A stretch of DNA of 64,000 nucleotides, taken from positions 10,602,001-10,666,000 of the forward strand of contig OZ004612.1 in the NCBI GenBank assembly GCA_963924565.1, given 5' to 3'. Under the pieces are notes generated by a model that saw only the letters and a program-made list of their open reading frames with translations, searched no databases and had not been told where the DNA came from. This stretch comes from Ascidiella aspersa (Eukaryota). Shown piece by piece: positions 16,427-40,444 of the stretch (the first letter of the stretch is position 1; each line of letters opens with the position of its first letter). The translations under genes were made by a program, and so were the position numbers.

Positions 16427-19400
16427 ATGATGTTTGTTTTTTTGTATGTTATTTTTTTTGTTGTTACTTTTTGTTTTTGTGAATCATTTACTCAAAATTT
16501 CAATGCTGATGATAAACTGCTTCAGAATTCATTTGACAAGTTTATCCATGACTTTAACAAAAGTTATGCATTCGGAAGTTCCGAGTACAAGTACAGATTT
16601 AACAACTTTGTGGTAAGACAAGTGAACTTTTTTTAAAAACCTTCATAAATATTTTTATATTATTTGTTCTAGGCTACCATTACAAGAATTCAGAAAAAGA
16701 ACTCTTTGAGTTTGTTTGTACAACCAGAAGGCAACCAGTCAACCATATATGGTATTACAAAGTTTTCAGATCTGTCACCAAAGGAATTTAAAGGTTAGAT
16801 CATCGTAAATGCTATTTTATTTTTTGATTATAAATTATTTATTGTCGTAGAATCCTTTCTTTCCAAAAGCACCCAAACGGAAAATCATGCAAATCAGTTA
16901 TTAATGGAAAGTTATAAATTCCCAAAAATGTGGGATTGGAGAGCCAAGGGCATTGTATCTCCTGTAAAAGATCAAGGAAAGGTATGAAGTTGCAATAAAT
17001 TGAAATATTGTATTGATATCCTAACATTTTATTAGTAGGGTGATTATTTTTTACCTAAAAGCTATAATATGAATATTTTTATAATATATTTTTTTTGACC
17101 AAATTATTTTTATTTTGTTAAAATTTGACCTGTCAGAAATGCATGGATTTAAACAACGTTTATTGAATAAAGTACTTCATTAGTGTCTTGGTTTTTATAG
17201 CCACTTTTCATATTTTACTGATGAACAGTTGAAGGCAAATCATATATTTTTTCGGGTTTGTGTGAAACCCTTAAAAATGCCTAGTTGACATTTGTTGCAT
17301 ATCAAAAAGAAAAAAAAGCTATAAAAATGCAAAAAAACAAGACGCTAAATATTTTATTTGCCTGAGTTACCTAAAGACCTACCTTATTATTAAAATAGAT
17401 TATGGGTTTATTGTAAATCACCACCGAAAAAAGACACAGCAAATACTGTTAATACATTTATTACACGACTATCTGATTTATTACTCAACTATACTATCTG
17501 GAAAAATTGAGTTCCGTCTATTGTTATTATGAAGATTTAAATGTTGTTGGATGTACTTTAAAACATTGTTTTTTTTTATATAAATGTAAACTGATTGCCA
17601 ATTTTAAAGAATCTCTTTTTAGTTTTTGGTAATTTTGTAAATGAATTTTGTGCATTTATTAAACGATTTTGACTTTTTTGTTAAGTCAAAAATAATCACC
17701 CTAATTGTAGGCTAATTTGTAATTTGTTACAAACATTTTAATTGGGGTAAAGTAACGTATTGTTTTTCCTGAACAACATATGCATGGTGTTACATTATTT
17801 TGTTTTAAGTAAACACTGTTTTATTTTTCAGTGTGGAAGCTGTTGGTAAGAAACAGTGTTTACATTTTTAAAAGTATATTTCTTTAAGTTCGTTTATAGT
17901 TTGCTAATGCTTTAGTTTTGTTGGCAGGGCATTTAGTGCTGTTGAGAATGTTGAGTCAATGTGGGCAAAATCAAACAAATTGATTAAGCTTAGCATTCAA
18001 CAAGTTGTGGATTGTAGTACCACAAACTTTGGTTGTAGTGGGGGCTCTCCTTGTTCCGCTCTTGCATGGCTGAAACACGTAAGAAACTAATCCTGTTTTT
18101 CATTAATTTGACTAAACCTGTAAATGTCTTAAAACGCCCCACAAACCTCATTCAGGTACACTTTATGTTGAGTGTATTTTTTTGATTACTTTTAAACACC
18201 ACTTATATTTTTTAAAGCAGAAAAAAATGTAATTAATTTATTTTTAGAACAAAGTCCGCCTAGTAGAAAGTAATCTATACCCCTATCATCAGGTTGCTGG
18301 ACATTGTCATAATGAAAGCTTGTAAGTATTAAGTTATGGGTAGGGTTGTTTTACACAACTTTAGTCAGACTTTGGTTCATTGCCTGTTACATTGAGTCTC
18401 AAGTCAGCTCCTACTCTGAAAAAAAGTAGGATGAATTACATGATATAAGCCATTACAACTATTTCCAATTACACTAGTTTTACTGTGTTTTACACTAGTG
18501 GTTTTTAGATTTGTTGACCCCTACTTATAATACTGCTTTTGGGTTGTCAGTTATAATGTGAATAAACTCAAAAAAGCAGAAGGTTTGCCCCTAGTAATCC
18601 TACAATGTATTTTGTTCATGTATCACTTCATGATGGAATACTAAACAGATTTAAAGCAGGCACAATTAAAAGGTGTTAATACAGCGTCAATCACATATTT
18701 AAACTGGCCAGAGCCTTATTCACATATCAGATGCAACCATTTGTGTTAAGACACTGCATTATAAAAGGTATTTTATTAGTTTCAATAAAAGTTGCAGATT
18801 TAAATCCTGAGGAATTTAAATCCTTAGGTCAGAGTCTTTAGGTCTATAGTGGTGAGTACCTTGTTTTTACCACATAAATATACTAACTACCATTTTAGGC
18901 AACCATTTGGAGTTGGAGTTGGACAATTTTTTTGCGGCAGGTTAGTGTTGTATTTAAAAATAATTAACTTTAAGAACATCATATGCTTAATGCGTCGACC
19001 GTATTTGTTTTCTTCAGCTGCCAGGGTCGATGTCCTGATGTTGAAATGAAGGAAATGTTACCAATCTTGTTCGCTAATGGCCCTCTAGCAATATCTGTCA
19101 ATGCTATTAGTTGGCAGGTCGGCATATTTAGTATTTTGTGTGTCACTCATAAATAGCTTTATTTGGTCTTTCTGTATGTAGGACTATGTAGGTGGAATTA
19201 TTCAGCATCATTGCTCTCATGATACCGCTAACCATGCAGTTCAGATTGTTGGTTATGATGTTACTGGTAAGTAAATATTAGTTTTGAGGTTATGTAATTA
19301 CAATAGTTTTAAAGTTTTTAAAATTAGGAATTTTTGGACATCTGCTAGGTGGCAGGCGTTAATAACTTAACGATCAAATAAAACATTCTAGGCATATATA

Positions 19401-20765
19401 TTGGGATCCAACCCGCCTAGCTATTTAATTCAGAACCGCTGAAAAATATTTTTTCTAGGTGTTTAATACGCTAATTTATCAACGCATTAGCGCATCTAAC
19501 CTAGCCTGCTGTTAGAATAATGTTCATGAAAATGTTTTACTAAAACCCGTCAACAAACTTTATACATGAAGGATGGGATAACTTAAAGGCCTGACAATTC
19601 ACGTCGCAGATAACTGTTAAAATTGACAATCGCGGGCCAAATAGGCTATAAAATTTTGTGTCATATATTATTAATTTAATTTAAAACTATTTAACAAAAA
19701 CTGTTAAAACTGTTAAGCTTTGTGAAATTGTCGGTCATTTTATATATATACAAAATTTATTGCATCTGATAACTTACAATTGCATTTTATCTTTAATAAA
19801 GCAATGCTCCGCAACAACAGGGTTTACAATTTTCAGGGTAATTACGCCGAGCGCTATTCATACACTAATTGTAACTATATGCTTTTAAAGTCCCAAAACC
19901 ATCCGCGAACGCCAACCAAGATAAGTTTGTGGGACACCAACTGAGATAAAAGAAATTACAGTGCGTTTTGAGCTTAGGAATTATGCGGTTTTGGTATAAA
20001 GTTGGAAATCGTGTTGCTGCATAGTTTAGACGCGCTAATGACCTGGTAGTTAAGTTTGTTTAAAAGGTATTTTTAAATCACGACATTTGCAATTGATAGT
20101 AGTAACATAAGACTGGATTTTATACGAAATCTTCATGTAAAAGCACAAGTAAAAAAGCCTGATACAGCGAAACACACTGTATTAAAGGCAATGCCGGAAG
20201 ACATTTAAAAAAAAAACTGTTTGATTTAGTAATTTTATGGGATAACTTTTTTCTGAAAATACATCGCAACAGCTAGAAGTTTTCTATGCCAAAAATATCA
20301 ACTAAGCACGAAGCTATACGGATTTGCGCTCACCAGTTTTCGACGAAAAATGCTGTGAACAACAGAGAATGACAATGCCGAGATATAGCCATATACAGCA
20401 ATTCATCCTGTATGTCTAAATTTGTTAAAAAACAGTTTTTAAGTAAAAAATCTCTTCACAAATACCGCTTGACTTTTGTTGGTTGTTAATTCGGTTTGCT
20501 TATCATTTTAAACTATTATTATTAGCGTTTCTCAGTTATAAAACTTGTTCTTGCAGGGGAAATTCCGTTTTGGATTGTTCGAAACTCCTGGGGTACGGAT
20601 TTTGGAGAAAACGGATTTTTGAGAATCAAAATAGGTGGCAACCTTTGCGGTATGTGTTTCACAGAGAGACCGTTCTAAATTTATAAATGCAATTATAATG
20701 AATATTTTTATCCTTTTTTAGGTGTCGCTAACTCCTACGCTGGCGTCATTTCAACTTTTGATTAA
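16427..20765 (+). CDS. CTSO: Cathepsin O (papain family C1A); exons 16427-16612, 16673-16793, 16851-16981, 17832-17845, 17928-18078, 18248-18321, 18899-18940, 19018-19117, 19182-19267, 20557-20649, 20722-20765
   Basis: Signal peptide, I29 propeptide ([14 protein letters not shown]), WDWR, DQGKCGSCWAFS (catalytic Cys), NHAVQIVGY (His), WIVRNSWG (Asn). [14 protein letters not shown] is characteristic of cathepsin O. All introns are GT-AG and in phase. Confidence 0.92.
17036..17703. mobile_element. TIR element (hAT-like tagggtg termini) filling most of CTSO intron 3
   Basis: 16-bp TIR tagggtgattattttt/aaaaataatcacccta; no clean TSD recovered. Confidence 0.65.
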
Positions 20766-20975
20766 AAGTTCTTATGATATTACTTTTTGTTTTCACCTTA
20801 TAATCTTGTTAATCTTTTTGCTTTTTTGTATCACTGTTGTGAACATGTTTCCACCTTTACCTTATGCAATACACTCAAGTTTGTATAAAGTCTTATTGTT
20901 ATAACATCACGAAAAACTTTCTGCCTCAGGTTGTAGCAATTGTTCAATATAGAGTGGGAAGAGATATCAACACTT

Positions 20976-21033
20976 TGTTTGAGGACTAAATTGTCTGTTT
21001 TGGCCTGTTTGAGGACTAAATTATCTGTTTTGG
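20976..21033. repeat. 30-bp tandem duplication downstream of the CTSO stop
   Basis: tgtttgaggactaaattRtctgttttgg occurs twice in tandem. Confidence 0.8.
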
Positions 21034-23032
21034 TGTGTATTTTACTCATCTTACATTTTGCCTTTTTCCTCTTTTTAAAATAGCGAAGTTACACATCCCA
21101 TGAACTTTTTGTTAATTTGTGCGCCAATTATCTCTTCTGCAGGTCTCGTTTTATAAAGTCAGATAAAAACAAAAGTTAACTATTAGGGAAAATGTTAAAA
21201 TTTTCCTCACACAAAACTGCCTCAAACAAACCGCTTCTAAATAACCCTCTCTTTAAGCGCCATCCGGGAAAAACTAAACACCAAGAAGCACGTTTGTAAC
21301 GTTGCTAAAACTTTTTAAATGCATTGGCCTAATATAGTCAGCGGTTTTCAAACCGCTAGTTTTTATTCGGTCAATGACTGACGCCTAGTTACTGCCACGG
21401 CTCTGTCGTAGCTAATTTAATTGTTACCAACATTTTAACTGAAGCCGTACGTGAGTTCTTAGTTCGGGTTTTAGATTGAATTAACTACAAGAAAAGTAAC
21501 CTGACAAACACAACAGTTAACCCAGCATACAAGTTTATTAAGCATCACACACCTTGGTCAAATAAGTCCTGAAGAAAAGTCAGGACGACATAAAATCGTG
21601 ACGTTAGTTGCATATTTTAAAGGTGGTAACTGACACTGATGGATAAGTGTTTTCTGATGCGTTATATCCGGATCGTGCAAATTTGAGTAACCTTTCGGCT
21701 TGGTTGAATCCAAACAGTGGCTGGAGCTGATTTTTATTTAAAAAAATGCGAACAAGCTGTTAACGCGAATATATTCGGACATACATTCTGGTTCGTAAAT
21801 CGGAAAGTACAAATGACACTCTTCTTTTAGTTAAATACCAATTTATTTTCGCTTTTCTGAAAGCTGTTAGTTCAGAAAACGTTGTAATAAACAGTACCAG
21901 AACTGGCCCACTGGGTAACAAAAACACTATTATCATGCAAAGGTTACGGGTCGTTTACGAGAGAGTGCCAGGTAGTCTGCTTACAATTACATACTCAAAA
22001 CTATCGCTATTAAGTTTTTATGTAAATAATAATATTTTTATAAGTTACTTAATGAGCGCGAAAAGGTCGCAAAAAGTGTTGTTAAAGTTGCTGGTCAAGT
22101 GTAAGTAAGATAAGGAGCAAACAAATTTCATGTTAAATATTTACTTGAGGTTTGCAAATGTTCTACAGCGTTGCCTATTTTACACTGTTTGCTGACGCAT
22201 GAAAAAAAGAGAAATGACCTAAAATCCGTATCAATATAGTCTATTGTGTGATATTGCACTTCTAAAATCAAAGTTTTAACAACAAATTTATTATATTTAA
22301 TCGATATACAACTAACATATTTATAATGGTGATTAGAAAAGCCAGACATAAAGAAATGTAGGCAAATCATATGCTTAATTTTACGTAAACGACTTGGATA
22401 ATTAGCAAAACGTGGGGTCGTGTTTTTCCTCTGATAGTAAATACGAAATGACAGTGCAATTTAGCAAGAACAGTTTAGCTCCGCCTGTAGTATTTGTGCA
22501 AGTGTGTTTAAAACTTGTTAAACTTGTACTGCGCTTGCTTTGTTCTTTATTTGCTAGTGTATACGGCATTTATTCATTCTAAGGTCATTATTTTATTTTT
22601 TTAACGCATATTTTTTGTTGGTTGCAACTTGCAAAGACATATAGCAGGCCAGGTGCACAACATGCGGCCTTAAATGAACAAGTTTATAAGTATGGCAAAA
22701 TGTGCACCGGCGATTGTTTTTCAACAGACTCGACCTGAACCCTTATAAATAGATTATTCCATACAATAACCTCTAACATCTTTAATTGTCATTTTTGTGC
22801 TTACTAAAAATATTTTGATTTTTGTGTGATTGGCTGCTGCTGAATGCTTTCAAAAGAGTAAAAATGAACTTTCCTTCTATGTGTATCTATACCTTTGTCA
22901 TGCGATTTAATATATTAATTTAATGTAGTGTGAAACCAATTTATTGTAAGTGCAAATCTTATATGTACCTGTGTTTGTAGGAGGTCTGTTGGCTAATTTT
23001 TACATAGGTATCATTTTGAACTTTAGGAAGCT

Positions 23033-25252
23033 ATGGGGAAACAAAAATTGAAGGCAAAGGCCCGAAAGGACAAGTACTACCAGCTTGCAAAGGAGACTGG
23101 GTACAGAGCTAGATCGGCATTCAAGCTTTTGCAACTCAACAAGAAATTTAACTTTCTTCAGTCTTCCCAAGTTCTCATTGACCTGTGCGCTGCCCCTGGT
23201 GGCTGGCTGCAAGTCGCTTCAGAGCACATGCCTGTAAAGAGCATCATTATTGGTGTGGATCTTGTTCCAATTAAACCGATCCCGCGGTGTATAACTTTTC
23301 AGGATGACATTACAAAGGAAAGCTGCAGGTCGCAAATCAGAAATGAGCTTCACAGTTGGAAAGTGGATTGTTTTTTAAACGATGGTGCGCCAAACGTTGG
23401 AAAGAACTGGCTCTTTGATGCTTATTCACAATCGGTCCTGGCACTTCACGCTCTTAAACTTGCCTGCGAGTTTTTAAAAAAAGGTGGATGGTTTATAACC
23501 AAGGTATTTCGTTCTAAAGACTACCAAGCTCTTATGTGGGTTTTCGGACAACTTTTTAACAAAGTTCATGCAACAAAACCACAAGCTTCGAGGAATGTCT
23601 CCGCTGAAATTTTCGTGGTATGTCAAGGTTACAAGTGCCCTGATAAAATTGATAACAAGTTTTTTGATCCTAAATCTGTTTTCCAAGATGTGGAAGGTAA
23701 AACCAGAGATATAAGTATTCTGGATTTTGAGCCAAAAAAGAAAAAGAAGGCCAAAGGTTACAGTGAGGAACGCGATTTGCTATTCCAACGCAAAACTGTA
23801 GAAGAATATTTGCAATCACCAAATCCATTACAGCTTCTGAGTGAAATTAATGAGTTGGTATTTTCATCAGAAGAAGAAAAAAGTCACAGTTTAGTCACAA
23901 AGGACGTCATTGAAAACGTCAAGGACATTAAAAGCCTTGGCAAGAAAGAAATTAAGGGTTTGTTGAACTGGCATCGTAAAAGGCGAAAAATGGATGCTCC
24001 GGAGGTAGACATCAGTGAAAAAGCTGACGAAGATGAAATTGATAGTGAAGAAGAGATTGACCGGAAGCTGGAAGAACTAAAAGAAGATGAAGCGAAAGCT
24101 TTAAAAAGGAAAAAAAAAGTTGTGATTAAAGAAAGAACAAAGCTAAGGGAGAGAATGAGTCATATGGCACAATCGATTGCTGTCCAAGAAGACATGGAAC
24201 TGTTTGCACTGAAAAATGTCGAGTCAGCAAACAATTTATCTGAACTAACAGAGGATGTTGATGTTGATCAAGCATTAATGTCCGATGATGATGAAGAGGA
24301 AGAAGATGGGGACCAGCAGTCCGATCTTGAAGAAGAATCTGCTTCAGAAAATGAAGAAAACAATAACATGACAAAAAATGTTGCAGCTGCTGATGATAAT
24401 GAAGAATTTGATGAATTTGAGACCCAGTTATGGTTCAACAAAGATGTTTTTAAAAAGATTAACGAAGATGAAAACGAAAATGATGAAGTCGCACATGCTG
24501 AAAACTATTACAAAAAAAAAAGTGAAAAGGCTGTCCATGATAATTTTGTGAGTAAGACTGCTAAACCAAAGGAAGAAACAGAAGTGGAGGCCTCTGACTC
24601 TGACAGTGATTCGGATGATGAAGCAGTTGATAAGGTGAAGACAAAACAACAGCCTAAAGCCATTAAAAGACAAAATTATAAAATGGATGCAGATGGTCTA
24701 GCTCTTGGTACTGTCATTTCCACATCAAACAAACGCAAACGGGACATAATTGATGACTCATTCAATCGTTATACTTTCAATGACAAGGAATGCGATCTCC
24801 CTGATTGGTTTTTAGATGACGAAAAGAAGAGAGTTTTCAAATCGCATCTGGACAAGCATGTTCCGAAAGACCTGGTGAGCTTCTACAAAACAAAGCAAAT
24901 GCAGATTAATGACAGGACTGTGAAGAAAGTTGCTGAGGCAAAAGCAAGAAAAAAACGAAAAATGATGAAGAAAATGGAAAAAGTTCGTAAACAAGCGGAA
25001 GGCATTACTGACTCTGCTGAGATGTCAAACAAGGAAAAGGCTGCTCACGTCAAGGGGATTTATAAAAAGGCAGGGCTTCTAGGTAAAAAGAAGGAGCACA
25101 CAACCTATGTATTTGCCAAAAAAGGAACAGGCAAGAGAGTACGTAGGCCTCCAGGAGTTGCCGGAAAATTCAAGGTGGTTGACAAAAGAATGAAAAAAGA
25201 CTTGCGCGCAGACAAAACCAAGTCTGGGAAATCTGGGAAAAGAAGAAAATAA
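23033..25252 (+). CDS. FTSJ3: Pre-rRNA 2'-O-ribose methyltransferase FTSJ3/Spb1 (intronless, 739 aa)
   Basis: DKYYQLAKETGYRARSAFKL, SAM-binding IDLCAAPGGW, K-D-K-E tetrad (AFKL, NDGAP, FITKVF, SAEIF), acidic middle region, Spb1 C-terminal domain (FNRYTF..LPDWF, KKVAEAKARKK, FKVVDKRMKKD). Confidence 0.97.
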   Translation: MGKQKLKAKARKDKYYQLAKETGYRARSAFKLLQLNKKFNFLQSSQVLIDLCAAPGGWLQVASEHMPVKSIIIGVDLVPIKPIPRCITFQDDITKESCRSQIRNELHSWKVDCFLNDGAPNVGKNWLFDAYSQSVLALHALKLACEFLKKGGWFITKVFRSKDYQALMWVFGQLFNKVHATKPQASRNVSAEIFVVCQGYKCPDKIDNKFFDPKSVFQDVEGKTRDISILDFEPKKKKKAKGYSEERDLLFQRKTVEEYLQSPNPLQLLSEINELVFSSEEEKSHSLVTKDVIENVKDIKSLGKKEIKGLLNWHRKRRKMDAPEVDISEKADEDEIDSEEEIDRKLEELKEDEAKALKRKKKVVIKERTKLRERMSHMAQSIAVQEDMELFALKNVESANNLSELTEDVDVDQALMSDDDEEEEDGDQQSDLEEESASENEENNNMTKNVAAADDNEEFDEFETQLWFNKDVFKKINEDENENDEVAHAENYYKKKSEKAVHDNFVSKTAKPKEETEVEASDSDSDSDDEAVDKVKTKQQPKAIKRQNYKMDADGLALGTVISTSNKRKRDIIDDSFNRYTFNDKECDLPDWFLDDEKKRVFKSHLDKHVPKDLVSFYKTKQMQINDRTVKKVAEAKARKKRKMMKKMEKVRKQAEGITDSAEMSNKEKAAHVKGIYKKAGLLGKKKEHTTYVFAKKGTGKRVRRPPGVAGKFKVVDKRMKKDLRADKTKSGKSGKRRK

Positions 25253-25478
25253 CCTTTTATGAACATGTTTTAAATTTATGTGTTTTCTATAGGCAAACCA
25301 AAATAGTTGTGTGGAATTTGTATAAATGTTTTGACAGTCAACTTTTGAAGTAACTTTACCTTGAATTTAACCAATAAATTGTAATAATCTTTAAGTGTAG
25401 TATCATTACATTTACGGTTTTGTTATTCTTTTCTCACTGCAAACTTTTGGATTTCAGGTGCTTAAAAAGTTGTAGGGC

Positions 25479-27089
25479 ATGGGATCCAAAACTTTGTTTT
25501 TTAATGCAAAAATTTGGACATCTGCAAGCCAGACAAGATCATGGATGGTGGTTGATTCCCAAATCGGTGAAATTATGCAGTGTGGCTTTGCAGATGACCA
25601 ACCACCAAAAGATGAACCAATAACTAAGGTTGATATGAAGCAGAAGTGGATATTTCCAGGCTTCCATGACTCACACATGCACATTGAATCATTTGGACTG
25701 GCTTTAGATAAAGGCCATCTTGGATTACCATCCACAGTTACAGAATTACAGAGCCGTTTAGCCTGCAAGATTAATGATCTACCCACTGAAAGCGATTGGC
25801 TTGTTGGCTTTGGTTGGGATCATGACTTAATGGACCGTATGCCGACTTGTGAAGATTTAGATAAGGTTAGTAAGGGCCATCCAGTTGTGCTTCACAGGGT
25901 TTGCCTGCACATATTAGTAGCCAATAGCAAGGCACTTGAACTAGCTCATATAAGTGATAAATCTCCAGATCCAGAAAATGGTGTTATCGATCGTTTTCCT
26001 GCTAATCATCCAAAAGCTGGTCACCCAACTGGTGTTTTAAGGGAAGACGGAGGTGTTCATTTGATGGCCAAGGTAATTCCTTCCATAACGAGTGAGCAGA
26101 AAAAAACTAACATAAAAGCAGCACTAAATGAATGTGTCAAAGTTGGACTTACCAGTGTGCACACAGTTGACCAGTGCAGTTGGAATGAATATGTTGAACT
26201 TGCAAAGGACAACCAACTACCAATACATTGCTATTTTTCTGCTTGGTATGTTGATATAGATACTGATAATTTTCCTTCCAAGCCTTATGAGTCCTACAAT
26301 AATCTTTCCTGTGACTGTGTAAAAATATTTTTGGATGGCGCTTTAAATACCCAAACTGCAGCCTTGACTCAACCCTACGTTGGTAGCGACAGTAATTGTG
26401 GAGTCATGTTGTTAACTGACACTGAAATTGAATTAGCGTTTAACAAAGTTACCAAGGCTGGATTTAGAATGGAAATTCATGTTATAGGCGACAGGGCTGC
26501 CGAAGTGGCATTAAATTATTTGGAAAAATGCAAAGTGCCTCCTGAAAACCGCACCATCTTTGTCCACTGTCAAATATTGCGTTCTGAGCTTCTGAACAGA
26601 ATGCTAAAAAATGGAGTAGTACCAACTCTCCAGCCATCATTTGTTCCAACAGATTCCAAGCAGATCCGAAATCGCTTGCCGGAATCCTTGCAGCAATGTA
26701 TTTATCCGTGGCGGACTTTAATCAAGAAGGGAATTCCATGTGGTGGAAGCAGTGATGCTCCAGTCGAGACCATCAACCCTTTACAAGGAATCTATGATGC
26801 AATTTTTAGGCCTGATTTAATGTTTAATGATGGAAGGCCCTTTATTGAAAAAGAATGTTTAACATTTGAAGAAGCTATTAATCTTTACACCATTGGATCT
26901 GCATTCGCTGATAAGGCAGAAAAATACAAGGGAAAAATTAAAGCAGGATTTCAGGCAGATTTTGTTGTACTTAATGTACCGTTAGATAAAAGTGGAAAAC
27001 CTAGAAACCTCATTAAAAACCCTGAGCTAATAAAAACTTGTAGTATAAAACAAGTCTGGGTGAAAGGAAAATGTTTGTGGGAAAATTAA
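25479..27089 (+). CDS. YtcJ-like metal-dependent amidohydrolase (Amidohydro_3 type), intronless, 536 aa
   Basis: PGFHDSHMH (HxH), WLVGFGWD, H.LVANSKALELA, PTGVLRE, VKIFLDGAL, IHVIGDRA, VHCQ, GGSSDAPVE..NPL.GI, EAINLYT.GSA, KGKIKAGFQADFVVL: the motif series of the YtcJ/NfdA/LAF3 family. Confidence 0.9.
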   Translation: MGSKTLFFNAKIWTSASQTRSWMVVDSQIGEIMQCGFADDQPPKDEPITKVDMKQKWIFPGFHDSHMHIESFGLALDKGHLGLPSTVTELQSRLACKINDLPTESDWLVGFGWDHDLMDRMPTCEDLDKVSKGHPVVLHRVCLHILVANSKALELAHISDKSPDPENGVIDRFPANHPKAGHPTGVLREDGGVHLMAKVIPSITSEQKKTNIKAALNECVKVGLTSVHTVDQCSWNEYVELAKDNQLPIHCYFSAWYVDIDTDNFPSKPYESYNNLSCDCVKIFLDGALNTQTAALTQPYVGSDSNCGVMLLTDTEIELAFNKVTKAGFRMEIHVIGDRAAEVALNYLEKCKVPPENRTIFVHCQILRSELLNRMLKNGVVPTLQPSFVPTDSKQIRNRLPESLQQCIYPWRTLIKKGIPCGGSSDAPVETINPLQGIYDAIFRPDLMFNDGRPFIEKECLTFEEAINLYTIGSAFADKAEKYKGKIKAGFQADFVVLNVPLDKSGKPRNLIKNPELIKTCSIKQVWVKGKCLWEN

Positions 27090-27481
27090 CATGATGGTTT
27101 GTTCGATTTAAAATACGTTATACGTTATCTTAATGTTAATTATCCAAGAAAACAGAATAAAATTCATGTGGTGTTTTTATGTATTTTTTAGCTCTGTTCT
27201 TGTTACTACATGGGAAAAAAGTTTGGTGAAATGTGTGTTTACTTTGTCATTGTACTGAATAATAATGCATGCACAGTATTTTTTATAATGTTATAATCTT
27301 GCATACACTGTATGCATGTTGATGTCTGGTACTAAAATAGCATGATGCAACATTTAATTTTAATTCATATCTTTGTATAAGTTTATTTTGTACATTCCTA
27401 AGTGCAATTGAAAAGTTTTAATTATTATATTACAGATATTTCATAGTCTGGGTTTAACCTAATATATTAATCACGCAAAAA

Positions 27482-28722
27482 ATGGTCCTCCAAGGTATTT
27501 GTGTTCTTACTGGCGATTATGGCACTATCGAGTTTCATCAAGAGGGAGATCAATGCAGCATCAAAGGTAAGCAAATTGGTTGTTCCATAGGCTCGTATTT
27601 TTTACTAACCAGTGCAAAATTGCTTCTTTATTACATGAAAATTGTATGCGTTAGATAACATGTGTTAACTGAAGCAAACCTTTTCCTTATAATAACTTTC
27701 TTATACACCTTTAGGCTAAAACCATTTCCACTAAAACGGGCCAAACGTAACATTTAAAAATTACATTTGCGTATAATTTAAAAATGTATTTTGGGGTTTC
27801 ATTGTCGTGTGTCTATATAGTATTTGGGAAAGTTTTGTATGCCTTTGGTGAAGTAAAGCACAATTATTGATAAGCTGGTCGAATCCCAAGGCGTTTTGTT
27901 CTAGCAGGGCGTCTTAAACACGCTCTGCACACCCACGTTCAGCGCCTATGGATGTTTCTGTGGTAGAAACTTTTAGCACTTCATCTGAAGAACATGTTGG
28001 CTGTTATAAGTGTTGTCCATACATTTTTGTGTATCGTTTAGTCTTCTATTATAATTTTAAGTTAGAAAATTAGCTTATAAATGTGATAATATTGCCAATT
28101 AAAACCGTCAATTAGGTACCAGTGCTCATATTCAGCACTCTGCTCTTTGGTTAAAAAATGTGGACCTACTACTTTCATTGTGATACACAAATAAACACCA
28201 GTGCATTTTTTTAGATGAACTCTACCTTTTGTATACTTATTCTGTTCAAACACAAACGTTTAGACAGCTGTGCATATGAGACTATGTAAAACAAGTGAAC
28301 AATGAAAAAAAAACTTGAACTTACATAGTTCTTTTACCTCTTGTGTGGGAGCAGGCAAAGTGAAAAATCTGACACCTGGTGAGCATGGCTTTCACATTCA
28401 CGAGTTTGGCGATCATAGCGGTGGCTGCACAAGTACTGGTGGTCATTTCAACCCTGAAGGTAAGGAACACGGGGGGCCAGAAATGGTGGAAAGGCATTTT
28501 GGCGACCTGGGAAACATCACAGCAGACGAACAAGGGGTTGCTGAAGTCAACATGACAGATAGCTTAGTCTCCCTAAGTGGAGCAAACTCGGTCATTGGAA
28601 GAGCTGTTGTCGTGCATGCTGACAAAGACGACCTTGGCCTGGGAGGTCATGCAGACAGCAAAAAAACTGGACATGCTGGAGGAAGAGTGGCTTGCGGCGT
28701 TATTGGAATTATGAAGAAATAA
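27482..28722 (+). CDS. SOD1: Cu/Zn superoxide dismutase (cytosolic); exons 27482-27566 and 28355-28722
   Basis: Exon 1 [22 protein letters not shown] splices in phase 1 to [64 protein letters not shown]. Metal ligands and both Cys are present. Confidence 0.96.
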
Positions 28723-29568
28723 ATGTTTGTTCTCAGTGATCTGTTATGTTTAGGTGTATATTCTAGAGATATGACTAATATACAGTGTGAATTCCAATTG
28801 ATTAATCGTGTGTTGCAAAGTCGTTGTTAATAAAGCTTCAATTTTCACTTTAAAAATACTCTCTTTAACACAAAACTTGTATAGTTTTCCTGCAACAAAA
28901 ATATTCACTTCTAAAAATAGTTTCTGTAAAAAAATTGACATCTGCAGTTTGTAAAGAAAGGTAGACTAAAAAACAAAAAAAAAGTACTGCTTATATAAAC
29001 TTTTTCAGGAAGCTTAATTAAAAATTCAAAACAAGTTTTGGCCTTTGAGGGTAGGTAAACCTTTCTAACATAAAAAATTATGTATGTTACAAAGTAAGTG
29101 CAAATACTTTATTATTTACACAGTACATTTTTGATTTAATATTAAAACAACACAAAAAGCCTAGGTAAAAGTGTAATTGGCAACCAAAGATTCAAGCCAG
29201 AAAAGGGTAAATACAACTAGTAGTCTATAGAAGGCTTCACATAAGATAAGAAAACATAGGACAGTGCGAGGAAATCTGAGACTATTGTGTTGTGCAACTT
29301 AAACAATGGTCAACCTGACCCAGGAGCAGCCCTGCTGAAGGTGACTAAATTAGCCCTGGTTAAAATTTTAGCAACCACTTTGTGAATAAAAGGTATGTGA
29401 CTGTGTGCAATTTGCACTTTAAAAAAAAACTAAATAAAAATATGGGTCCACAAGAGCTTCAAATAAACTATAAAAATGTTAAGTTGTGGTATAGCACAAT
29501 TGTACAATTTATTAAATAGAAATATTGCTTTATTTGTAAACAAAGTTTAACAACAGAAAACAGCTTTT

Positions 29569-30777
29569 TCAAGAAATGGCTTGCGTTACTGGTGGTGCTT
29601 CTACATGGGTAGCCATTGATGTTACTGCCAGTTCATAGGATTTTGATTCAAAATTGCAAATGGAATCACTGACATCGTTTTTCATGTCACTGTGTGGAGT
29701 CATCAGGTGATTTGATCTTTGTCTATCAATGTTGGTATCACATTCCTTGTGTTTGCCTTCAACATTGCTTGCTCCAGCATAAATGTTAGCATCTGGGTAT
29801 AGACTTAATAGAGCCTGTTGGGCAGCAAGGTACCTTTTTCTTCTGTTCATCTTGTACAGCGCAATCCTCTCTTCCTCTTCTTCCAGGGTTTCACTTACAC
29901 CGACTGGGGAGTTTAGTATTTTTGACACAATAGGGCTACAAAGTCTTGAATTGCTTGATTTTGGAGGCACTGTTTGCGAGTAGGTGACTATGTACGGCAG
30001 CCACCGTAGACTGTCATTAAAATTTTGACAGACTTCTTCAATTTCATCTCTTTCCTTGCAAGCCTTTATTGGACTTATAACAGATGGACAGGAGTATGTG
30101 GATCTTGATTTTCTTGGACGGCCTGAATTCAGATTAAACAACAACAGTTGGTAGTTTTAATTGAGGCAATCCTGTGTTAAATAATAATAAACTAGCTAGC
30201 TTACCTATAAAATTATTCTACAAAGTGTCTTAAAATTAAATCATTTTATGTTTTGGTTGATTTAAACTAATCTGACTTTGTGAAGTTTAAATTTTTATGA
30301 CTAAATATTAGTGCTACAATCTGCTGCCTACCCTAAATATAGTTTGGTTAAATTGACTTAAAATATTGTCTCTTGTTACTGTTACCAATGAGAACTACTG
30401 GTATATAGACAGTTAGACATCCATTATATCAATTGTTGTAGTGGAAAATAACACCATCCATTCATGACTAGCCTACTCATCAAAGGTACAATTTTTCCAC
30501 TTTGACTCGTTGTTTACACACACAGAAGCTATTTTGGTAATCTGAGGAACATATAAGAATTTACCAAGATCAAAAACTTTTTATAATGGGAAATAAACTC
30601 ACCCAATGAGTCTGGACTTCCGGTGGCTGATGTACTGGATGCAGATGACCGCTTTCCTTCCTTGAGTTTTCGTTTTTTTCTTCTCTTCTTCTTTAATTTG
30701 TCAACGGCACTTGTACTTACCACTTTTCTGCTGCTGAGACTGGAAACTTCCATCTCAATTCCTGCACAAACTAGCAT
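29569..30777 (-). CDS. LIAT1: LIAT1-like protein (ligand of ATE1 / C17orf97-like); exons 30777-30603 and 30122-29569
   Basis: N-terminal Lys-rich tract KLKKKRRKKRKLK, Ser-rich linker, and NDSLRW...EEEEERIALYKMNRRKRY, resembling the Liat1 domain as I recall it. Phase-1 GT-AG intron. The start could be the second Met. Confidence 0.7.
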
Positions 30778-33403: not shown

Positions 33404-33698
33404 CTATATTTCACTATAAACTAAACTAGTACATTGCAGTAAATTAAATTGATTTTGTTTATTAGTGTCGAAATCTGTTGTTTCCAATGTTTCTCTTTCA
33501 ACGCTAAGAATAGCAAGGTCACTGAGACAATCCGCCCCATTAATGCACGCAGATACAACAAAATAAGTCTTAATTTGCTGAACGACGGCTTGCAACTTGC
33601 AATTGAAATTGCTATTGTTAACAGAATTTGTAGTGAAATTCGCAGATTCGGAAATACGTCATCCCCATAAAACAAAATGAAGCCAAAAAACTCTAAAG
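33404..33698 (-). pseudogene. Degraded hAT transposase, C-terminal dimerization-domain part (host of the Buster insertion)
   Basis: YGDDVFPNLRISLQILLTIAISIASCKPSFSKLRLI..LRA.M then frameshifted LSDLAILSVERE. The catalytic CERSFS motif is mutated to CKPSFS. Confidence 0.85.
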
Positions 33699-33946
33699 CA
33701 GTGGTTCCCAACCTGTGGTCCGCGGACCACTGTTGGTCCGCGGAACAATTCGTGGTGGTCCGTGGATCAACTGATACCTTCTTATTAAAATTTTGTTATT
33801 TCGAGTGTCCAGACTGTGCAATCTGTATAGTGGTACTGTTCTGAATTGTGGTCTTTGCTCAGTAGGTATTTGGCAGTGTTCCGGGGTGGTTGTGTGTGTT
33901 ATGCCCGGTATCATGCTCTCCATCAATCACTGCATTATATAATAAC

Positions 33947-34008
33947 TAGGGCTGTGAAAATATGCCCTTTAATATATGCCAAATATTCCCTTTAAATTCA
34001 CAGCCCTG
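33947..34008. mobile_element. 62-bp hAT micro-element nested in the 5' leader of the Buster element
   Basis: 12-bp TIR tagggctgtgaa/ttcacagccctg (terminal base mismatch); perfect 8-bp TSD ataataac (33939-33946, 34009-34016); internal atatgcc / cccttta repeats. Confidence 0.85.
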
Positions 34009-34116
34009 ATAATAACTGTTATCTCATTTTCTATAACCGTATTATTTTATTTCAGTTATCTCCATTTTCTAGTTATAAGAATGTTACAGCTAAATTTAAC
34101 TTACTAATTTGAAACA

Positions 34117-35982
34117 ATGAACACCAAGCAGATGTCATTACAAAGTTTCCTTGTACCGGGCAAAAGGCCAATAGAAGAAAGAGATGAAGGCACCTTAAAA
34201 TCAAAGAAAATTAAAGATTTGAACAGACAATACCAAGAATCATATTTAAAATATGGATTTATATCGACAGGCGATTCGCACAAACCAAACCCACTCTGCT
34301 TAGTATGCGGTAAACAGCTTTCTAATGATGCCATGAAACCCTCAAAACTGATTCGCCACTTGAACACCAATCACCCTAATTTAAAAGAAAAGCCTCTCGA
34401 TTATTTTGAGAGAAAGAAAAGGGAACACGAGAAACAGAAGACATTTCTAAGGGCTTCCACATCAATAAATGAAAAAGCATTGACAGCATCATATTTGGTG
34501 GCTAACCGTATTGCTAAGGTAAAAAAGGCATTTACCATAGGAGAAGAATTAATCTTGCCTTCCACTAAAGATATTTGCCGTGAACTTCTAGGAGAAAATG
34601 CTGTTAAAAAGATAGAACATGTGCCTTTGTCGAATAACACTGTCAGTAGGCGCATTCAAGATATAGCCAAAGACATCGAGGAACAATTATTAGAGAGGAT
34701 TAATTTGTCACCGTGGTACGCACTCCAAGTAGATGAATCAACAGATGTCGACAACAAGGCAATACTTCTTGTTTATGTGCGATATCTATATCAGGAGAAT
34801 GTACATGAAGATTTGCTATGTATTCTATCTTTGTCAACAAAGACCACAGGAGCCGAACTTTTCAAGGCAATGGATAATTATATATCAATGAAATTAAAAT
34901 GGTCATTTTGTGTTGGTATATGTACAGATGGAGCTGCTGCCATGACTGGTCGAATTTCGGGTTTAACTTCACGGATTAAAGAGGTTGCACCAGGGAGTGA
35001 ATCTACTCATTGTATCATTCACAGAGAAATGCTGGCAAGCCGTAAAATGTCGCATGAATTTAACAATGTATTGAAGGACGCGGTTCAAGTTATTAACCAC
35101 ATTAAAGCTCACGCTCTTAATTCGCGTCTTTTTGCACAGCTATGTGAGGAGATGGACGCAGATCACAGACACCTTCTCTTACACACAGAAATAAGATGGT
35201 TATCCAGAGGAAAATCACTAAACAGGGTTTTTGAATTACGAGAGCCATTGAAAAAATTTCTTGAAGAAAAGAAATCTCCGCTTGCAGTTCATTTTAGTGA
35301 CAACGTATGGATTGCCAAATTGGCTTACCTGTGTGATATATTCAGCCTGCTTAACGAATTTAATTTGTCACTCCAAGGAAAAATGAAAACAGTTTTCAGT
35401 TTGGCAGACAAAATTGCTGCATTCAAAGCCAAGTTAGAGCTATGGTTAAAACGCCTGGACAAAGACATCTTGGACATGTTTCATACATTAACTGTGTTTT
35501 TGACCGAGACTGAAACTGAATCATCAATCTCACAGTTGATACACGATCACTTATCAATGCTTTTAAAAGAGTTCGAGCGTTACTTTCCGACTTCTAAAGA
35601 CCCCCGAAATGGCAAAGAATGGATCCGCAACCCATTTGTCAATAAACCAGTGGAATTAAGCATGTCTGTAGAACAGGAAGCCAAATTATTAGAGATCAAA
35701 AATGATGGTGACCTTAAATCTATGTTTGAGGAAAAAACTTTGACGGAGTTCTGGATGAAAGTCATGGCCGAATACCCTGCGATTGCTACAGCAGCATTAA
35801 AATGCTTATTGCCATTTCCGACATCCTATTTCTGTGAAGTGGGGTTTTCTGCGATGACAGTAACAAAAACAAAGCATCGAAGTAAGCTTGAGATAAGCGA
35901 CACGCTACGAGTGTCATTGTCTCCAATTACTCCTAGATGGAACAGACTGATTGCGGAGAAGCAAGCGCAAGGTTCACATTGA
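34117..35982 (+). CDS. Buster-type hAT transposase (ZBED5/SCAND3-like), 621 aa, uninterrupted
   Basis: BED-like finger PLCLVCGKQLSNDAMKPSKLIRHLNTNH; D (LQVDESTD), D (CTDGAAAM), CxxH (HCIIHRE), RW (EIRWLSRG), E (YFCEVGFS); Buster-typical C-terminus KQAQGSH. Confidence 0.96.
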   Translation: MNTKQMSLQSFLVPGKRPIEERDEGTLKSKKIKDLNRQYQESYLKYGFISTGDSHKPNPLCLVCGKQLSNDAMKPSKLIRHLNTNHPNLKEKPLDYFERKKREHEKQKTFLRASTSINEKALTASYLVANRIAKVKKAFTIGEELILPSTKDICRELLGENAVKKIEHVPLSNNTVSRRIQDIAKDIEEQLLERINLSPWYALQVDESTDVDNKAILLVYVRYLYQENVHEDLLCILSLSTKTTGAELFKAMDNYISMKLKWSFCVGICTDGAAAMTGRISGLTSRIKEVAPGSESTHCIIHREMLASRKMSHEFNNVLKDAVQVINHIKAHALNSRLFAQLCEEMDADHRHLLLHTEIRWLSRGKSLNRVFELREPLKKFLEEKKSPLAVHFSDNVWIAKLAYLCDIFSLLNEFNLSLQGKMKTVFSLADKIAAFKAKLELWLKRLDKDILDMFHTLTVFLTETETESSISQLIHDHLSMLLKEFERYFPTSKDPRNGKEWIRNPFVNKPVELSMSVEQEAKLLEIKNDGDLKSMFEEKTLTEFWMKVMAEYPAIATAALKCLLPFPTSYFCEVGFSAMTVTKTKHRSKLEISDTLRVSLSPITPRWNRLIAEKQAQGSH

Positions 35983-37932: not shown

Positions 37933-39700
37933 TCAGCAACAAAAATCTTTTTTCCACTTTTCCAACAATTGTGTTGTTACTTGTGTTCCCCCACAAACTA
38001 TTACTAAAATGTTTTGCACTTTTTTAAGCAGTTCATTTTCATTCTGTAGTTCAAGGAAATAGTCGTTGTAGAAAACAGACAAAGAAGCAGCACAAGCTGG
38101 CTCAACTAGAACTTTTTCATCATCTATAAACAGAGCAATTAATTTAGTTTAAAAATATTCTTAAACCAACTATTTAAGGCAGTGGTTCTCAGCCGGAGGG
38201 GTGCCGCAGCTCTCTAGGGTTCTTTTTTTAATGCTTAAGGGCGCCAAGAGATAGGTTAAATTATTTAGGATTCATTTTATTACTTAATTAGTAAGCTTCT
38301 TGTTGCACAGTCAATGTGCTGTTTCAATCTCGTTTATAGCAACGTTACAGTAAACCACTCAGCAAAAATACAAGCAAGGGGCCACGAACTATTTATAATT
38401 TCTTTCCGCAAGCCAAAAAAGGTTGGTTCCGCAAGCCAAAAAGGTTAGGAACCACTGATTTAAGGCATTGGGTAGTATATAGACCAGTGCTTTTCAACCT
38501 TTTTGCTGGAGTGGAACCCTATGGAAACATTCCACTGACTCGAGAAACCCCAGTGCAATAATTCCACTGGGTCAAGGAACCTCAGTGTAATAAACACAAC
38601 TCAATTAGCTAAACAATCTAGAAATTGCGGAACCCCTTGACTGTACTAGCGGAACCCTCGTTGAAAGCCACTGATATAGACTATGCCATGGTAAAAGTCC
38701 AATTTAATACAAATTAATAACTTCATCAAAGTTGTATTCACCTAGGAACTGGCACATGCTTGAAACCACATCTTTATCTGACACACAACAAGAGACAAGA
38801 GGGTGATTCTTGAAAGCATCTAATGCTGCTTGACACACAGTTTTGGCTCCAAGCGATTTGGCGATGCTGTTAATGACAAATAAAAAAGTTAAATACCATG
38901 TTTATACAAGTTTAGTAAATTAAGACGAATTATGGCGGTTGTAAAATAAAAATGAAACAGCTGTCAAACACTGAATACTTTAATTATTTTAATATGGAAC
39001 CAGATTTATAAATGTGATTCCTCTGAGTAAAATTACAATAAGTACATTGATTAACAAAGATACAAAATACTTACCTATCTATGCCTGGCAGAGTTATCAA
39101 GTGTCCGGCTTTTATGGCTTTATTCAGACTGTCGGCTCCAAATGTTTCTGCAGCTAGAACAACAACGTCATTCCATCCCCGCGCTTTCAAACCTTCCACA
39201 ACACCACAAAGCAAACCACCACCTCCAACAGAACAGACCACCAAGTCAGGTTTTTCTTCAAGCTCGGAAATCACACTGCTGTGGCCCTTCCACAGTAGAG
39301 GGTGGTCAAATGGTGGAACATACGAAAACCCATCTTTTTCTGCAAACTGCAGGGCTGCCTCATTGGCCTCATCCCACACTGCCCCAACTACATTCACGTT
39401 GGCACCTTCCTCTTTCAAGCGATTCACAGTTAATTCAGAGGTGGTTTTAGGGACAAATATGGTTATTGGAGTGTTAAGCTTATTGGCAGCATAGGCGGCA
39501 GCAAGACCTGCATTGCCCCCAGAAGAACACACCAGCTGCTTGCAACCAGCTTCAACAGATTTTTGGCACATATACCCGACACCTCGAATTTTAAATGACC
39601 CGCTTGGTTGACAATTTTCGAATTTTAAATAGACTTTGCACCCAACTTTCTTACTAAGTACATTGCTTTGCCTACAAGGCGTTTTGAAATGTAGACTCAT
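37933..39700 (-). CDS. SDS: L-serine/threonine dehydratase (SDS/SDSL family); exons 39700-39075, 38866-38742, 38123-37933
   Basis: PLP lysine motif YLKFENCQPSGSFKIRG, SSGGNAG, PPFDHP, SVGGGGL, SIAKSLGA, LVEPACAA, VIVCGG. GT-AG introns are in phase. SDS and SDSL cannot be distinguished. Confidence 0.92.
38180..38457. mobile_element. Buster-type hAT MITE in SDS intron 2
   Basis: TIR cagtggttc/gaaccactg; perfect TSD atttaagg (38172-38179, 38458-38465). Confidence 0.88.
38485..38673. mobile_element. Second Buster-type hAT MITE in SDS intron 2
   Basis: TIR cagtgcttttcaac/gttgaaagccactg; perfect TSD atatagac (38477-38484, 38674-38681); ggaaccc repeats. Confidence 0.88.
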
Positions 39701-40444
39701 GTCTGAAAATAGCCCCTAAAAGAAAAGAGGGGTGTCAAAAAAAAGAGCATGTATTATGTATACAAATACAACAAAATTTGATTGAGGATATTGTGTAGTT
39801 CGAAAACAGTCATAATGTAAAAGTTGGCCAGAGAACTTACAAGTACTACCCAGATTGGAAACCTTAGTGTTCAACTTTTGGATAATAATTCCGAAAGATG
39901 TAAAAGCGGCTTAAAATTGCGCGGCTGCAATAAAGTTTATGCCTAATTTTGCGTGGCTTACAGCTGGGCTGCATCATGTTATTCCTTTCCCGCGAAATAT
40001 ACAAAATTTCCAATCTTGGCCAACAGCAATGCAAATGTAGTGCACCAAATCTACAGCTATTTGTTTTCACAATATAAATAAAGACGTTTATTTGGTTGGG
40101 TAATCCCCTTAAATATCTTAATATTATTGCTGTTAGGTTATTATAAGCTACGCATGGCATCCTTTAATTAAATGTATTTCTAGACTTTACGCCGAAATAG
40201 AGGCGCAACTAAAATAATACTCTATTGGAACGCATGAAAATATTTAAATATGCCGTCACAGCGACGTTATAAAATAAACAACTTTAAAATGACCACTGAT
40301 CTTGAAACCATAGAGATCAGTGGGATAACATTCACAAAAGATCAACTGGCACCTCAGTTTAAATAAAATTAACTAAATAGTGACAAAATGTTAATTGTAG
40401 TGGTTCTTCAGCTGGGGTCTGCGGAACCCTGGGAGGCCATTAGG

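What the first reader, a model, noticed from the sequence alone, without database searches (positions are those of the whole stretch)
22970..28722. Candidate three-gene operon FTSJ3 - amidohydrolase - SOD1 resolved by trans-splicing
Seen: three same-strand genes with only 226 bp and 392 bp between stop and next ATG. Each gap contains an AATAAA (25373, 27156), then a T-rich stretch and an AG acceptor (tttcag 25452-25457; ttacag 27430-27435) 21 and 46 nt before the next ATG. There is no obvious upstream donor and little room for a promoter. Known: tunicates have polycistronic operons in which the upstream 3' end lies close to the downstream spliced-leader acceptor. Inference: co-transcription of a ribosome-biogenesis methyltransferase, an orphan hydrolase and SOD1, showing how a foreign gene could gain expression without its own promoter.
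Basis: inference. Interest (0 to 1): 0.7.

Follow-up and report, generated by a model that had tools for sequence, protein, structure and literature searches.

The report
Conserved sea-squirt three-gene operon candidate
Three tightly packed sea-squirt genes (an rRNA methyltransferase, a metal-dependent hydrolase and superoxide dismutase) are also linked in other sea squirts and are likely read as one transcript that a spliced leader cuts into three mRNAs, an ordinary arrangement in these animals, and the middle gene is neither an orphan nor a recent bacterial import.

Summary
The anatomy is as described: FTSJ3 (23033-25252), an Amidohydro_3/YtcJ-like gene (25479-27089) and SOD1 (27482-28722), with gaps of 226 and 392 nt. 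An operon is likely (about 0.72). The genome holds 573 matches to the Ciona spliced leader plus GT. Stranded RNA covers both gaps, and a rough 3'-end model puts the upstream mRNA ends near the next acceptor, as in Ciona operons. Both gaps are CpG-depleted. The three genes are linked in Clavelina and Ciona, judged by accession order and contig length. No leader-bearing read was seen, so trans-splicing itself is not shown. The AATAAA motifs are at chance level, and reads run through the one at 27156. The hydrolase is not an orphan: it is 51-58% identical to tunicate relatives, groups with annelid and stramenopile proteins, and a clade with any of three sampled bacterial groups is rejected. A foreign gene gaining expression inside an operon is already published for Hydra flp. 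Verdict: likely a new, old member of a known kind of operon.

The parts
21000..22499 (.). CpG-undepleted stretch upstream of the unit; likely holds the shared promoter (inferred)
   Evidence: CpG o/e 1.01-1.19 in three 500-nt bins, falling to 0.61 at 22500
22444..22980 (+). Transcribed non-coding leader, likely an outron of FTSJ3; 11 upstream ATGs
   Evidence: X4 depth 10 at 22517-22562; X3 piece 22444-23211; ATG list; 1-nt deletion allele at 22542 inside the only 44-aa + strand ORF
22963..22980 (+). Best-scoring acceptor upstream of FTSJ3 (AG 22979-22980); candidate trans-splice site
   Evidence: score 11.3, no ATG between it and 23033
23033..25252 (+). FTSJ3/Spb1 rRNA methyltransferase, 739 aa, no intron in the CDS
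   Evidence: Pfam FtsJ, DUF3381, Spb1_C; 72% to Phallusia, 63% to Ciona intestinalis
25253..25457 (+). Gap 1: likely FTSJ3 3' UTR running up to the next acceptor
   Evidence: X4 mean depth 6.44 in 25208-25441 against 0.15 in an intron bin; X3 piece 24002-25689 unbroken; an end at 25457 fits better than 25395; CpG o/e 0.22
25373..25378 (+). AATAAA, chance-level motif, likely not the main poly(A) signal
25452..25457 (+). Acceptor tttcag, candidate SL trans-splice site of the amidohydrolase
   Evidence: score 8.7, matched in 1.6% of random stretches; no SL read seen
25479..27089 (+). YtcJ-like metal-dependent amidohydrolase (Amidohydro_3), 536 aa, intronless, single copy; substrate unknown
   Evidence: HxH 66/68, H334, H363, D426 present (their role as metal ligands is recalled); nearest solved chains 3icj and 3igh are uncharacterised hydrolases
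27090..27435 (+). Gap 2: likely amidohydrolase 3' UTR reaching to about 27370-27435
   Evidence: X4 depth 10 at 27104, 12 at 27184, 2 at 27312 and 27357; X3 piece 26493-27428; fit of the end position
27156..27161 (+). AATAAA that reads run through; likely not the main poly(A) signal
   Evidence: depth 12 at 27184, where the model expects 0-0.6 if the mRNA ended at 27180-27191
27174..27191 (+). Alternative, better-scoring acceptor in gap 2; not the start of most SOD1 mRNA
   Evidence: score 7.6; depth only 2 at 27312 and 27357 against 27 at 27477
27430..27435 (+). Acceptor ttacag, candidate SL trans-splice site of SOD1
   Evidence: score 2.7, chance level; last AG but one before the ATG; depth rises from 2 to 27 between 27357 and 27477
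27482..27566 (+). SOD1 coding exon 1
27567..28354 (+). SOD1 cis-intron, 788 nt, GT..AG
   Evidence: 16 X4 reads and one X3 contig span the joint
28355..28722 (+). SOD1 coding exon 2 (whole protein 150 aa)
   Evidence: Pfam Sod_Cu; translation
28829..28834 (+). AATAAA, likely poly(A) signal that ends the unit
   Evidence: an end near 28850 reproduces the three SOD1 depth values, an end near 28740 does not

Best explanation
FTSJ3, a YtcJ-like amidohydrolase and SOD1 lie head to tail on one strand and likely form a Ciona-type operon, in which one promoter near 22.4 kb would make a single precursor that the 16-nt spliced leader is predicted to resolve at the acceptors 25457 and 27435 (and probably 22980). 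The upstream mRNAs likely end at or close to the next acceptor, so the gaps are mostly 3' UTR and the AATAAA motifs inside them are largely passed over. Shown: genes, strand, gaps, SL gene copies in the genome, RNA across the gaps, CpG profile. Inferred: single promoter, leader addition, exact 3' ends, and adjacency in other species (from accession order and contig lengths). The arrangement is likely ancestral for at least the Ciona/Clavelina/Phallusia-related ascidians. The amidohydrolase is likely an inherited eukaryotic gene with patchy retention.
For: SL exon+GT matches 573 times in G000 against 1 for the control. In one stranded RNA run (552 reads laid, about 6% of the run read) gap 1 has mean depth 6.44 against 0.15 in an intron bin, and no joint enters either acceptor while the SOD1 intron shows 16. 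A 3'-decay curve set on the convergent gene reproduced SOD1's end. It rejected an amidohydrolase end at 27180-27191 (0-0.6 expected, 12 seen), fitted 27370-27435, and favoured 25457 over 25395 at all 3 plateau values tried. CpG o/e is 1.0-1.2 upstream of 22500 and 0.32-0.73 in all ten 500-nt bins from 22500 to 27499, with 0.22 and 0.60 in the gaps. Clavelina: XP_076815375/376 are consecutive, and CAK8680272 (a fused FTSJ3+hydrolase model), 273 and 274 (SOD1) are consecutive. C. intestinalis: all three lie on a 9,518,626-nt contig, with UniParc ids ...C085/086/087. C. savignyi: H2YL40, H2YL38, H2YL26. [quoted passage not shown]
Against: No SL tail appears among the 24 loose-end rows shown (36 rows hidden), and no pile-up of read starts is listed at 25458 or 27436. 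The tool may not list tails of 14 nt or less, but that is my inference. The depth budget cannot tell a step at 27436 from a ramp starting near 27400. The 27435 acceptor scores at chance level. About half of Ciona genes are trans-spliced anyway (PMC1488885), so SL genes in the genome do not imply an operon. In L002 no FTSJ3 lies within 3.4 kb upstream and no SOD1 within 2.4 kb downstream, although that organism's genes share contig lengths. Styela FTSJ3 and SOD1 hits lie on different contigs. Only 1 of 7 unnamed tunicate-clade hydrolase clusters shares a contig length with an FTSJ3 hit; 4 of 7 share one with a SOD1 hit. Depth is low, comes from one library, and the calibrating poly(A) sites are themselves inferred.
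Confidence: 0.72

Rival explanations
1. FTSJ3 and the amidohydrolase form a two-gene operon, while SOD1 is driven mainly by its own start site near 27400-27436 inside the hydrolase 3' UTR (hybrid unit).
For: Weak acceptor at 27435 (2.7). Depth is only 2 at 27312 and 27357, close to intron level, and SOD1 depth (27) is twice the hydrolase's (12). A ramp from 27400 fits the depth budget as well as a step at 27436.
Against: Gap 2 with its flanks is CpG-depleted (0.49). Hydrolase RNA appears to reach 27370-27435. Hydrolase-SOD1 is the more widely shared link (4 of 7 unnamed clusters, plus Clavelina and Ciona). PMC1488885 (section 17) reports that operon members accumulate to uncoordinated levels.
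Confidence: 0.16
2. Three separately promoted, closely packed genes whose 3' UTRs overlap the next promoter; the AG sites are monocistronic trans-splice sites with short outrons, or are unused.
For: No SL read and no read-level proof of a dicistronic molecule. A contig across two genes shows no single transcript. Ciona outron lengths peak near 100 nt (PMC4691747 passages). The gap exceeds 3.3 kb in L002.
Against: There is no uncovered stretch in gap 1, and it has 1 CpG in 226 nt. The acceptor at 25457 is strong. The FTSJ3-to-hydrolase order is kept in Clavelina.
Confidence: 0.1
3. The amidohydrolase is a bacterial gene acquired by a tunicate ancestor and expressed by landing inside an existing operon.
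For: It is intronless, most of the lower-ranked named relatives are bacterial, and no vertebrate or insect name appears among the best 120 hits.
Against: Capitella (41%) and oomycetes (36-39%) rank above all named bacteria (at most 34%). The 12 named eukaryotic rows are split from 9 bacterial rows by a branch with support 100. AU tests reject tunicates+Bacilli (p 2.5e-6), +Clostridia (7e-41) and +Acidobacteria (1.2e-4). An oyster proteome paper names an 'amidohydrolase ytcJ' (PMC4531390 passage; sequence not checked). FTSJ3 is intronless too. One weaker test, tunicates plus all bacteria on one side of a branch, was not rejected (p 0.26); it only moves Capitella next to the stramenopiles.
Confidence: 0.08

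Closest known systems
Ciona intestinalis SL-resolved operons (Satou et al. 2006, PMC1488885; 2008, PMC2760879)
   Same: Same strand, same 16-nt leader encoded in the genome, single-exon 5' genes, no AAUAAA within 40 nt of either boundary, upstream RNA apparently reaching the acceptor. Three-gene operons are common there (185 of 1,310).
   Different: Here leader addition and poly(A) sites are not mapped at base resolution. Whether the Ciona orthologues are already a listed KH operon could not be checked: the gene-model supplement was too large to read, and the SLOPPR supplements use other identifiers.
Hydra RFC140-flp operon (Dana et al. 2012, PMC3273482)
   Same: A housekeeping gene upstream and an intronless, patchily distributed gene downstream, resolved by leader addition; the paper states the same idea of expression without an own promoter.
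   Different: flp is absent from other opisthokonts except Clytia, whereas this hydrolase has annelid and stramenopile relatives and does not group with the sampled bacteria.
YtcJ-like amidohydrolases (Pfam Amidohydro_3; PDB 3icj, 3igh)
   Same: Full-length match (Pfam E 1.5e-74; profile to 3icj E 2.9e-70) with the histidine and aspartate motifs present.
   Different: Belongs to a eukaryotic subgroup; no NCBIfam family reaches its cut-off; substrate not determined.

Membership tests
Ciona-type SL-resolved operon | Adjacent genes on the same strand | tested here: met
   RNA on the + strand throughout
Ciona-type SL-resolved operon | Organism encodes an SL RNA | tested here: met
   573 matches to SL exon+GT, control 1; 584-nt tandem arrays
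Ciona-type SL-resolved operon | Downstream cistrons carry the SL | tested here: inconclusive
   no SL tail in the 24 loose-end rows shown, 36 hidden; short tails may not be listed
Ciona-type SL-resolved operon | Less than 100 nt between the upstream 3' end and the downstream 5' end, typically poly(A) at the acceptor G | tested here: inconclusive
   rough fit puts the ends at 27370-27435 and nearer 25457 than 25395; no poly(A) junction was seen
Ciona-type SL-resolved operon | No AAUAAA/AUUAAA within 40 nt upstream of the boundary (16 of 18 Ciona cases) | tested here: met
   the nearest lie 79 and 274 nt upstream of the acceptors
Ciona-type SL-resolved operon | Unresolved dicistronic transcript | tested here: inconclusive
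   X3 piece 24002-25689 crosses gap 1, but X3's kind is not on record and a contig is not a molecule
Ciona-type SL-resolved operon | One promoter at the 5' end, none between cistrons | not testable with these tools
   needs CAGE or TSS-seq; the CpG profile is only consistent with it
Horizontally acquired gene (criteria of PMC3273482) | Anomalous distribution | tested here: inconclusive
   named eukaryotic hits are tunicates, one annelid and stramenopiles; most hits are unnamed
Horizontally acquired gene (criteria of PMC3273482) | No introns | tested here: met
   single ORF here and in L002; uninformative, because 38% of Ciona operon genes are single-exon
Horizontally acquired gene (criteria of PMC3273482) | No homologues in other animal lineages | tested here: not met
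   Capitella 41% over 99% of the length; sister to the tunicate group (support 98 and 78)
Horizontally acquired gene (bacterial donor) | Nests within or beside a bacterial group | tested here: not met
   3 of 3 AU tests reject it; only 9 named bacteria were sampled
YtcJ-like amidohydrolase (Amidohydro_3) | Full-length domain with HxH, two further histidines and the late aspartate | tested here: met
   motif roles recalled

The most novel reading that the evidence does not exclude
This is one of the oldest surviving ascidian operons. A hydrolase retained in only scattered animals, perhaps acquired from another eukaryote, was fixed between two housekeeping genes in an early ascidian. It has stayed co-transcribed ever since, even where the gap grew beyond 3 kb, because it has no promoter of its own.
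Probability: 0.15. Interest if true: 0.55.

Novelty: new member of a known kind. Interest (0 to 1): 0.3.

Why it matters
About a fifth of Ciona genes lie in operons (PMC2760879), so one more is ordinary. The modest value here is comparative. The same three genes are linked across several ascidian groups, which makes the locus a ready test of how long such operons last, what happens when a gap expands (L002), and whether trans-splicing itself makes the upstream 3' end, a question PMC1488885 leaves open. It also warns that a 1302-aa Clavelina FTSJ3-hydrolase 'protein' in databases is likely a mis-fused operon model.

Tried and rejected
AATAAA as evidence: rejected, chance level and read through. 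Cis-splicing from an upstream exon within 22400-29400: no such joint reached the listing threshold of 3 reads. A fourth coding cistron at 22448-22582: rejected, no NCBIfam match and a frameshifting allele in 4 of 10 reads. Non-coding RNA gene in or near the unit: Rfam finds only a tRNA-like match at 52672. Metagenome scan: 1 of 80 loci (L002) was tunicate-like, and none of the 80 held FTSJ3 or SOD1 (the SOD1 query had a wrong exon boundary and was redone). Run search: no RNA holder listed; the one raw RNA run came by species label. The protein atlas only returned Amidohydro_3 clusters. Earlier findings: nothing in two look-ups. Literature: no paper on this cluster turned up (one search listed 20 of 2,041 papers, none with FTSJ3). 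Supplements: could not be read, file 1 was not searched, and searches gave nothing useful, so an existing KH operon entry cannot be excluded. Trees: one search used 68 rows (window, hits 1-60 minus one short row, 8 further named rows); searches used 21 named rows with LG+G4 and a short search.

Full report
Observation. Pfam names the genes FTSJ3/Spb1, Amidohydro_3 and Cu/Zn SOD. The closest named relatives are from Phallusia, Clavelina and Ciona, so the window is ascidian. It is G000:C6:10602001-10666000 of a 308-Mb genome, and the hydrolase is single-copy there. SOD1 has one 788-nt intron and one distant paralogue in the genome.

Chance. I built splice-site matrices from 11 introns of the window and drew 5000 random non-coding stretches per length. 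AATAAA occurs in 34% (226 nt) and 50% (392 nt) of them. An acceptor as strong as 25457 near the end occurs in 1.6%, one as strong as 27435 in 30%. So only the first acceptor is unusual by sequence alone. Gap 1 has no credible donor. Gap 2 has two donor-like sites and a better AG at 27191.

Machinery. The Ciona leader (PMC1488885, passages) followed by GT matches 573 places in G000 with at most one mismatch, against 1 for the reversed control, largely as 584-nt tandem repeats. The organism can therefore likely trans-splice. This says nothing yet about this locus, since about half of Ciona genes are trans-spliced.

RNA. All read evidence comes from one lay of four runs on 22400-29400. X4 is stranded raw RNA (552 reads laid, about 6% of the run read). 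X1 and X2 behave as DNA. X3 is not on record; I read it as RNA-derived because it holds the spliced SOD1 joint and has zero depth at 28016-28249. In X4 the three genes and both gaps are covered on the + strand. Gap 1 has mean depth 6.44, an intron bin 0.15. In gap 2 depth is 10 at 27104, 12 at 27184, 2 at 27312 and 27357, and 27 at 27477. The only spliced joint listed is the SOD1 intron (16 reads). Against my reading: no leader tail is among the 24 loose-end rows shown (36 hidden), and no pile-up of read starts is listed at either acceptor. The leader would leave at most 14 unmatched letters, which the tool may not list; that is an inference. Trans-splicing here is not shown.

3' ends. Coverage in this library falls steeply before a 3' end. 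I set a simple decay curve on the convergent minus-strand gene (end assumed near 29090) and checked it on SOD1: with an end at 28850 it predicted 22.9, 17.7 and 1.31 against 27, 20 and 1.72. For the hydrolase, an end at 27180-27191 predicts 0-0.6 at 27184, where 12 was seen; ends at 27370 and 27435 bracket the data. For FTSJ3, 25457 fits better than 25395 at all three plateau values. The model is crude, and its anchor sites are inferred from motifs. It nevertheless points to upstream mRNAs that pass the AATAAA motifs and end near the next acceptor. That is the Ciona pattern: poly(A) added at the acceptor G, and no AAUAAA within 40 nt in 16 of 18 cases (PMC1488885 sections 13, 14, 17). For SOD1's 5' end, the depth budget fits either a step at 27436 or a ramp from about 27400.

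5' end. RNA is present well upstream of 22980: depth 10 at 22517-22562 and an X3 piece from 22444. The stretch has 11 ATGs, a polymorphic frameshift in its only 44-aa ORF, and ends in the best acceptor of the region. Its length of about 540 nt is in the range of Ciona outrons (mean 438; PMC4691747 passages). Its fairly high depth, and the dip to 2.43 at 22634-22867, are unexplained. CpG o/e is 1.0-1.2 from 21000 to 22499 and 0.32-0.73 in all ten bins from 22500 to 27499. This fits one methylated transcription unit with its promoter upstream (gene-body methylation in ascidians is recalled; PMC3333190, abstract only, says the CpG signal at ascidian starts is modest).

Other species. Adjacency is inferred from identifiers, not from coordinates. 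Clavelina: FTSJ3 XP_076815375.1 and hydrolase XP_076815376.1 on one contig with SOD1. A second annotation has CAK8680272.1, which is FTSJ3 (1-759) joined by five residues to the hydrolase (765-1302), followed by SOD1 models 273 and 274. PMC2760879 (passages and section 10) describes such fused models as a typical operon artefact. C. intestinalis: all three on a contig of 9,518,626 nt, with three consecutive UniParc ids. C. savignyi: H2YL40, H2YL38 and H2YL26. Of 7 unnamed tunicate-clade hydrolase clusters, 4 share a contig length with a SOD1 hit and 1 with an FTSJ3 hit; megabase contigs do not prove adjacency. Against: Styela FTSJ3 and SOD1 hits are on different contigs, and no Styela hydrolase is named among the best 120. 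In L002 the hydrolase has an AG 8 nt before its ATG but no FTSJ3 within 3.4 kb upstream and no SOD1 within 2.4 kb downstream, though its organism's FTSJ3 and hydrolase share contigs as short as 10,260 nt and the upstream DNA stays CpG-poor.

The hydrolase. It has 3,264 relatives at E 0.001 or better among 7,996 candidates scored. The tunicate group is 51-58% identical, Capitella 41%, oomycetes 36-39%, named bacteria 30-34%. In a 68-row tree the tunicate clade is sister to two unnamed rows, then to Capitella, inside a group with stramenopiles and apart from all 10 named bacteria. In a 21-row tree, AU tests reject a clade of tunicates with Bacilli, Clostridia or Acidobacteria. A looser constraint that only moves Capitella was not rejected. 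An oyster proteome names an 'amidohydrolase ytcJ' (PMC4531390, one passage). Vertical descent with many losses is the simpler account; an old transfer between eukaryotes is not excluded. The nearest solved structures are uncharacterised metal-dependent hydrolases. It likely hydrolyses a small amide with bound metal; the substrate is unknown, and nothing links it functionally to FTSJ3 or SOD1.

Known and new. Ciona has 1,310 candidate operons, 185 of them with three genes. The idea that a foreign gene gains expression by landing in an operon is published for Hydra flp (PMC3273482, abstract and discussion). I found no paper on this cluster, but supplements I could not read may list the Ciona orthologues as an operon. 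PMC7986045 was seen as passages, section 26 and a supplement search; PMC11136907 as a supplement search only.

Verdict. Likely a real, old operon of the known Ciona type (0.72), with a hybrid unit (0.16) and independent genes (0.10) as rivals. The orphan and foreign-gene reading is not supported. Interest 0.3.

Noticed in passing
G000 C1, C2, C3 (L082-L091): SL RNA gene copies share the 16-nt exon and GT (and, on C3, about 300 nt upstream) but continue into at least four different sequences after the donor; runs of 584-nt units alternate with spacers of about 7.8-8.4 kb. Possibly SL RNA subtypes or a co-repeated unit.
   Followed up: partly
window 22444-22980 +: The upstream non-coding RNA is nearly as deep as FTSJ3 itself (10 against 8-15 just downstream), with a dip at 22634-22867; inefficient trans-splicing or a separate short transcript.
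   Followed up: partly
window 16427-20767 +: Eleven-exon papain-family (cathepsin-like) protease gene on the same strand, 1.7 kb upstream of the transcribed leader, with a 14-nt exon at 17832-17845. Connection to the unit untested.
   Followed up: partly
window 21390-21565: Dispersed repeat of about 170 nt (21 other matches), clustered on C1, C2 and C7, three copies within about 15 kb of SL gene copies on C2.
   Followed up: no
window 27858-27955: Very high-copy short repeat inside the SOD1 intron (contig depth in the thousands).
   Followed up: no
window 29569-30156 -: Expressed convergent gene (195-aa exon, no Pfam or NCBIfam match) whose 3' UTR reaches to about 29090.
   Followed up: partly
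Clavelina CAK8680272.1 (P0373): A 1302-aa database protein that is FTSJ3 joined to the hydrolase by five residues; likely a mis-fused operon model, a real read-through fusion was not tested.
   Followed up: partly
window 39071-39715 -: 214-aa open frame with a strong PALP (PLP-dependent enzyme) match.
   Followed up: no
window 33421-35982: 624-aa ORF with a weak BED zinc finger and a nearby weak hAT dimerisation match on the other strand; likely transposon-derived.
   Followed up: no
window 2900-7681 - and 90-452 -: Adhesion-type GPCR exons (GPS, 7tm_2) and an LSM-domain exon.
   Followed up: no
window 52672-52746 +: tRNA-like match with 34.9 bits; possibly a tRNA-derived repeat.
   Followed up: no
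L004 9113-11512: In an unnamed contig the hydrolase sits at the end of a 799-aa open frame; P0022 (812 aa) carries GDSL-lipase Pfam domains in addition.
   Followed up: no
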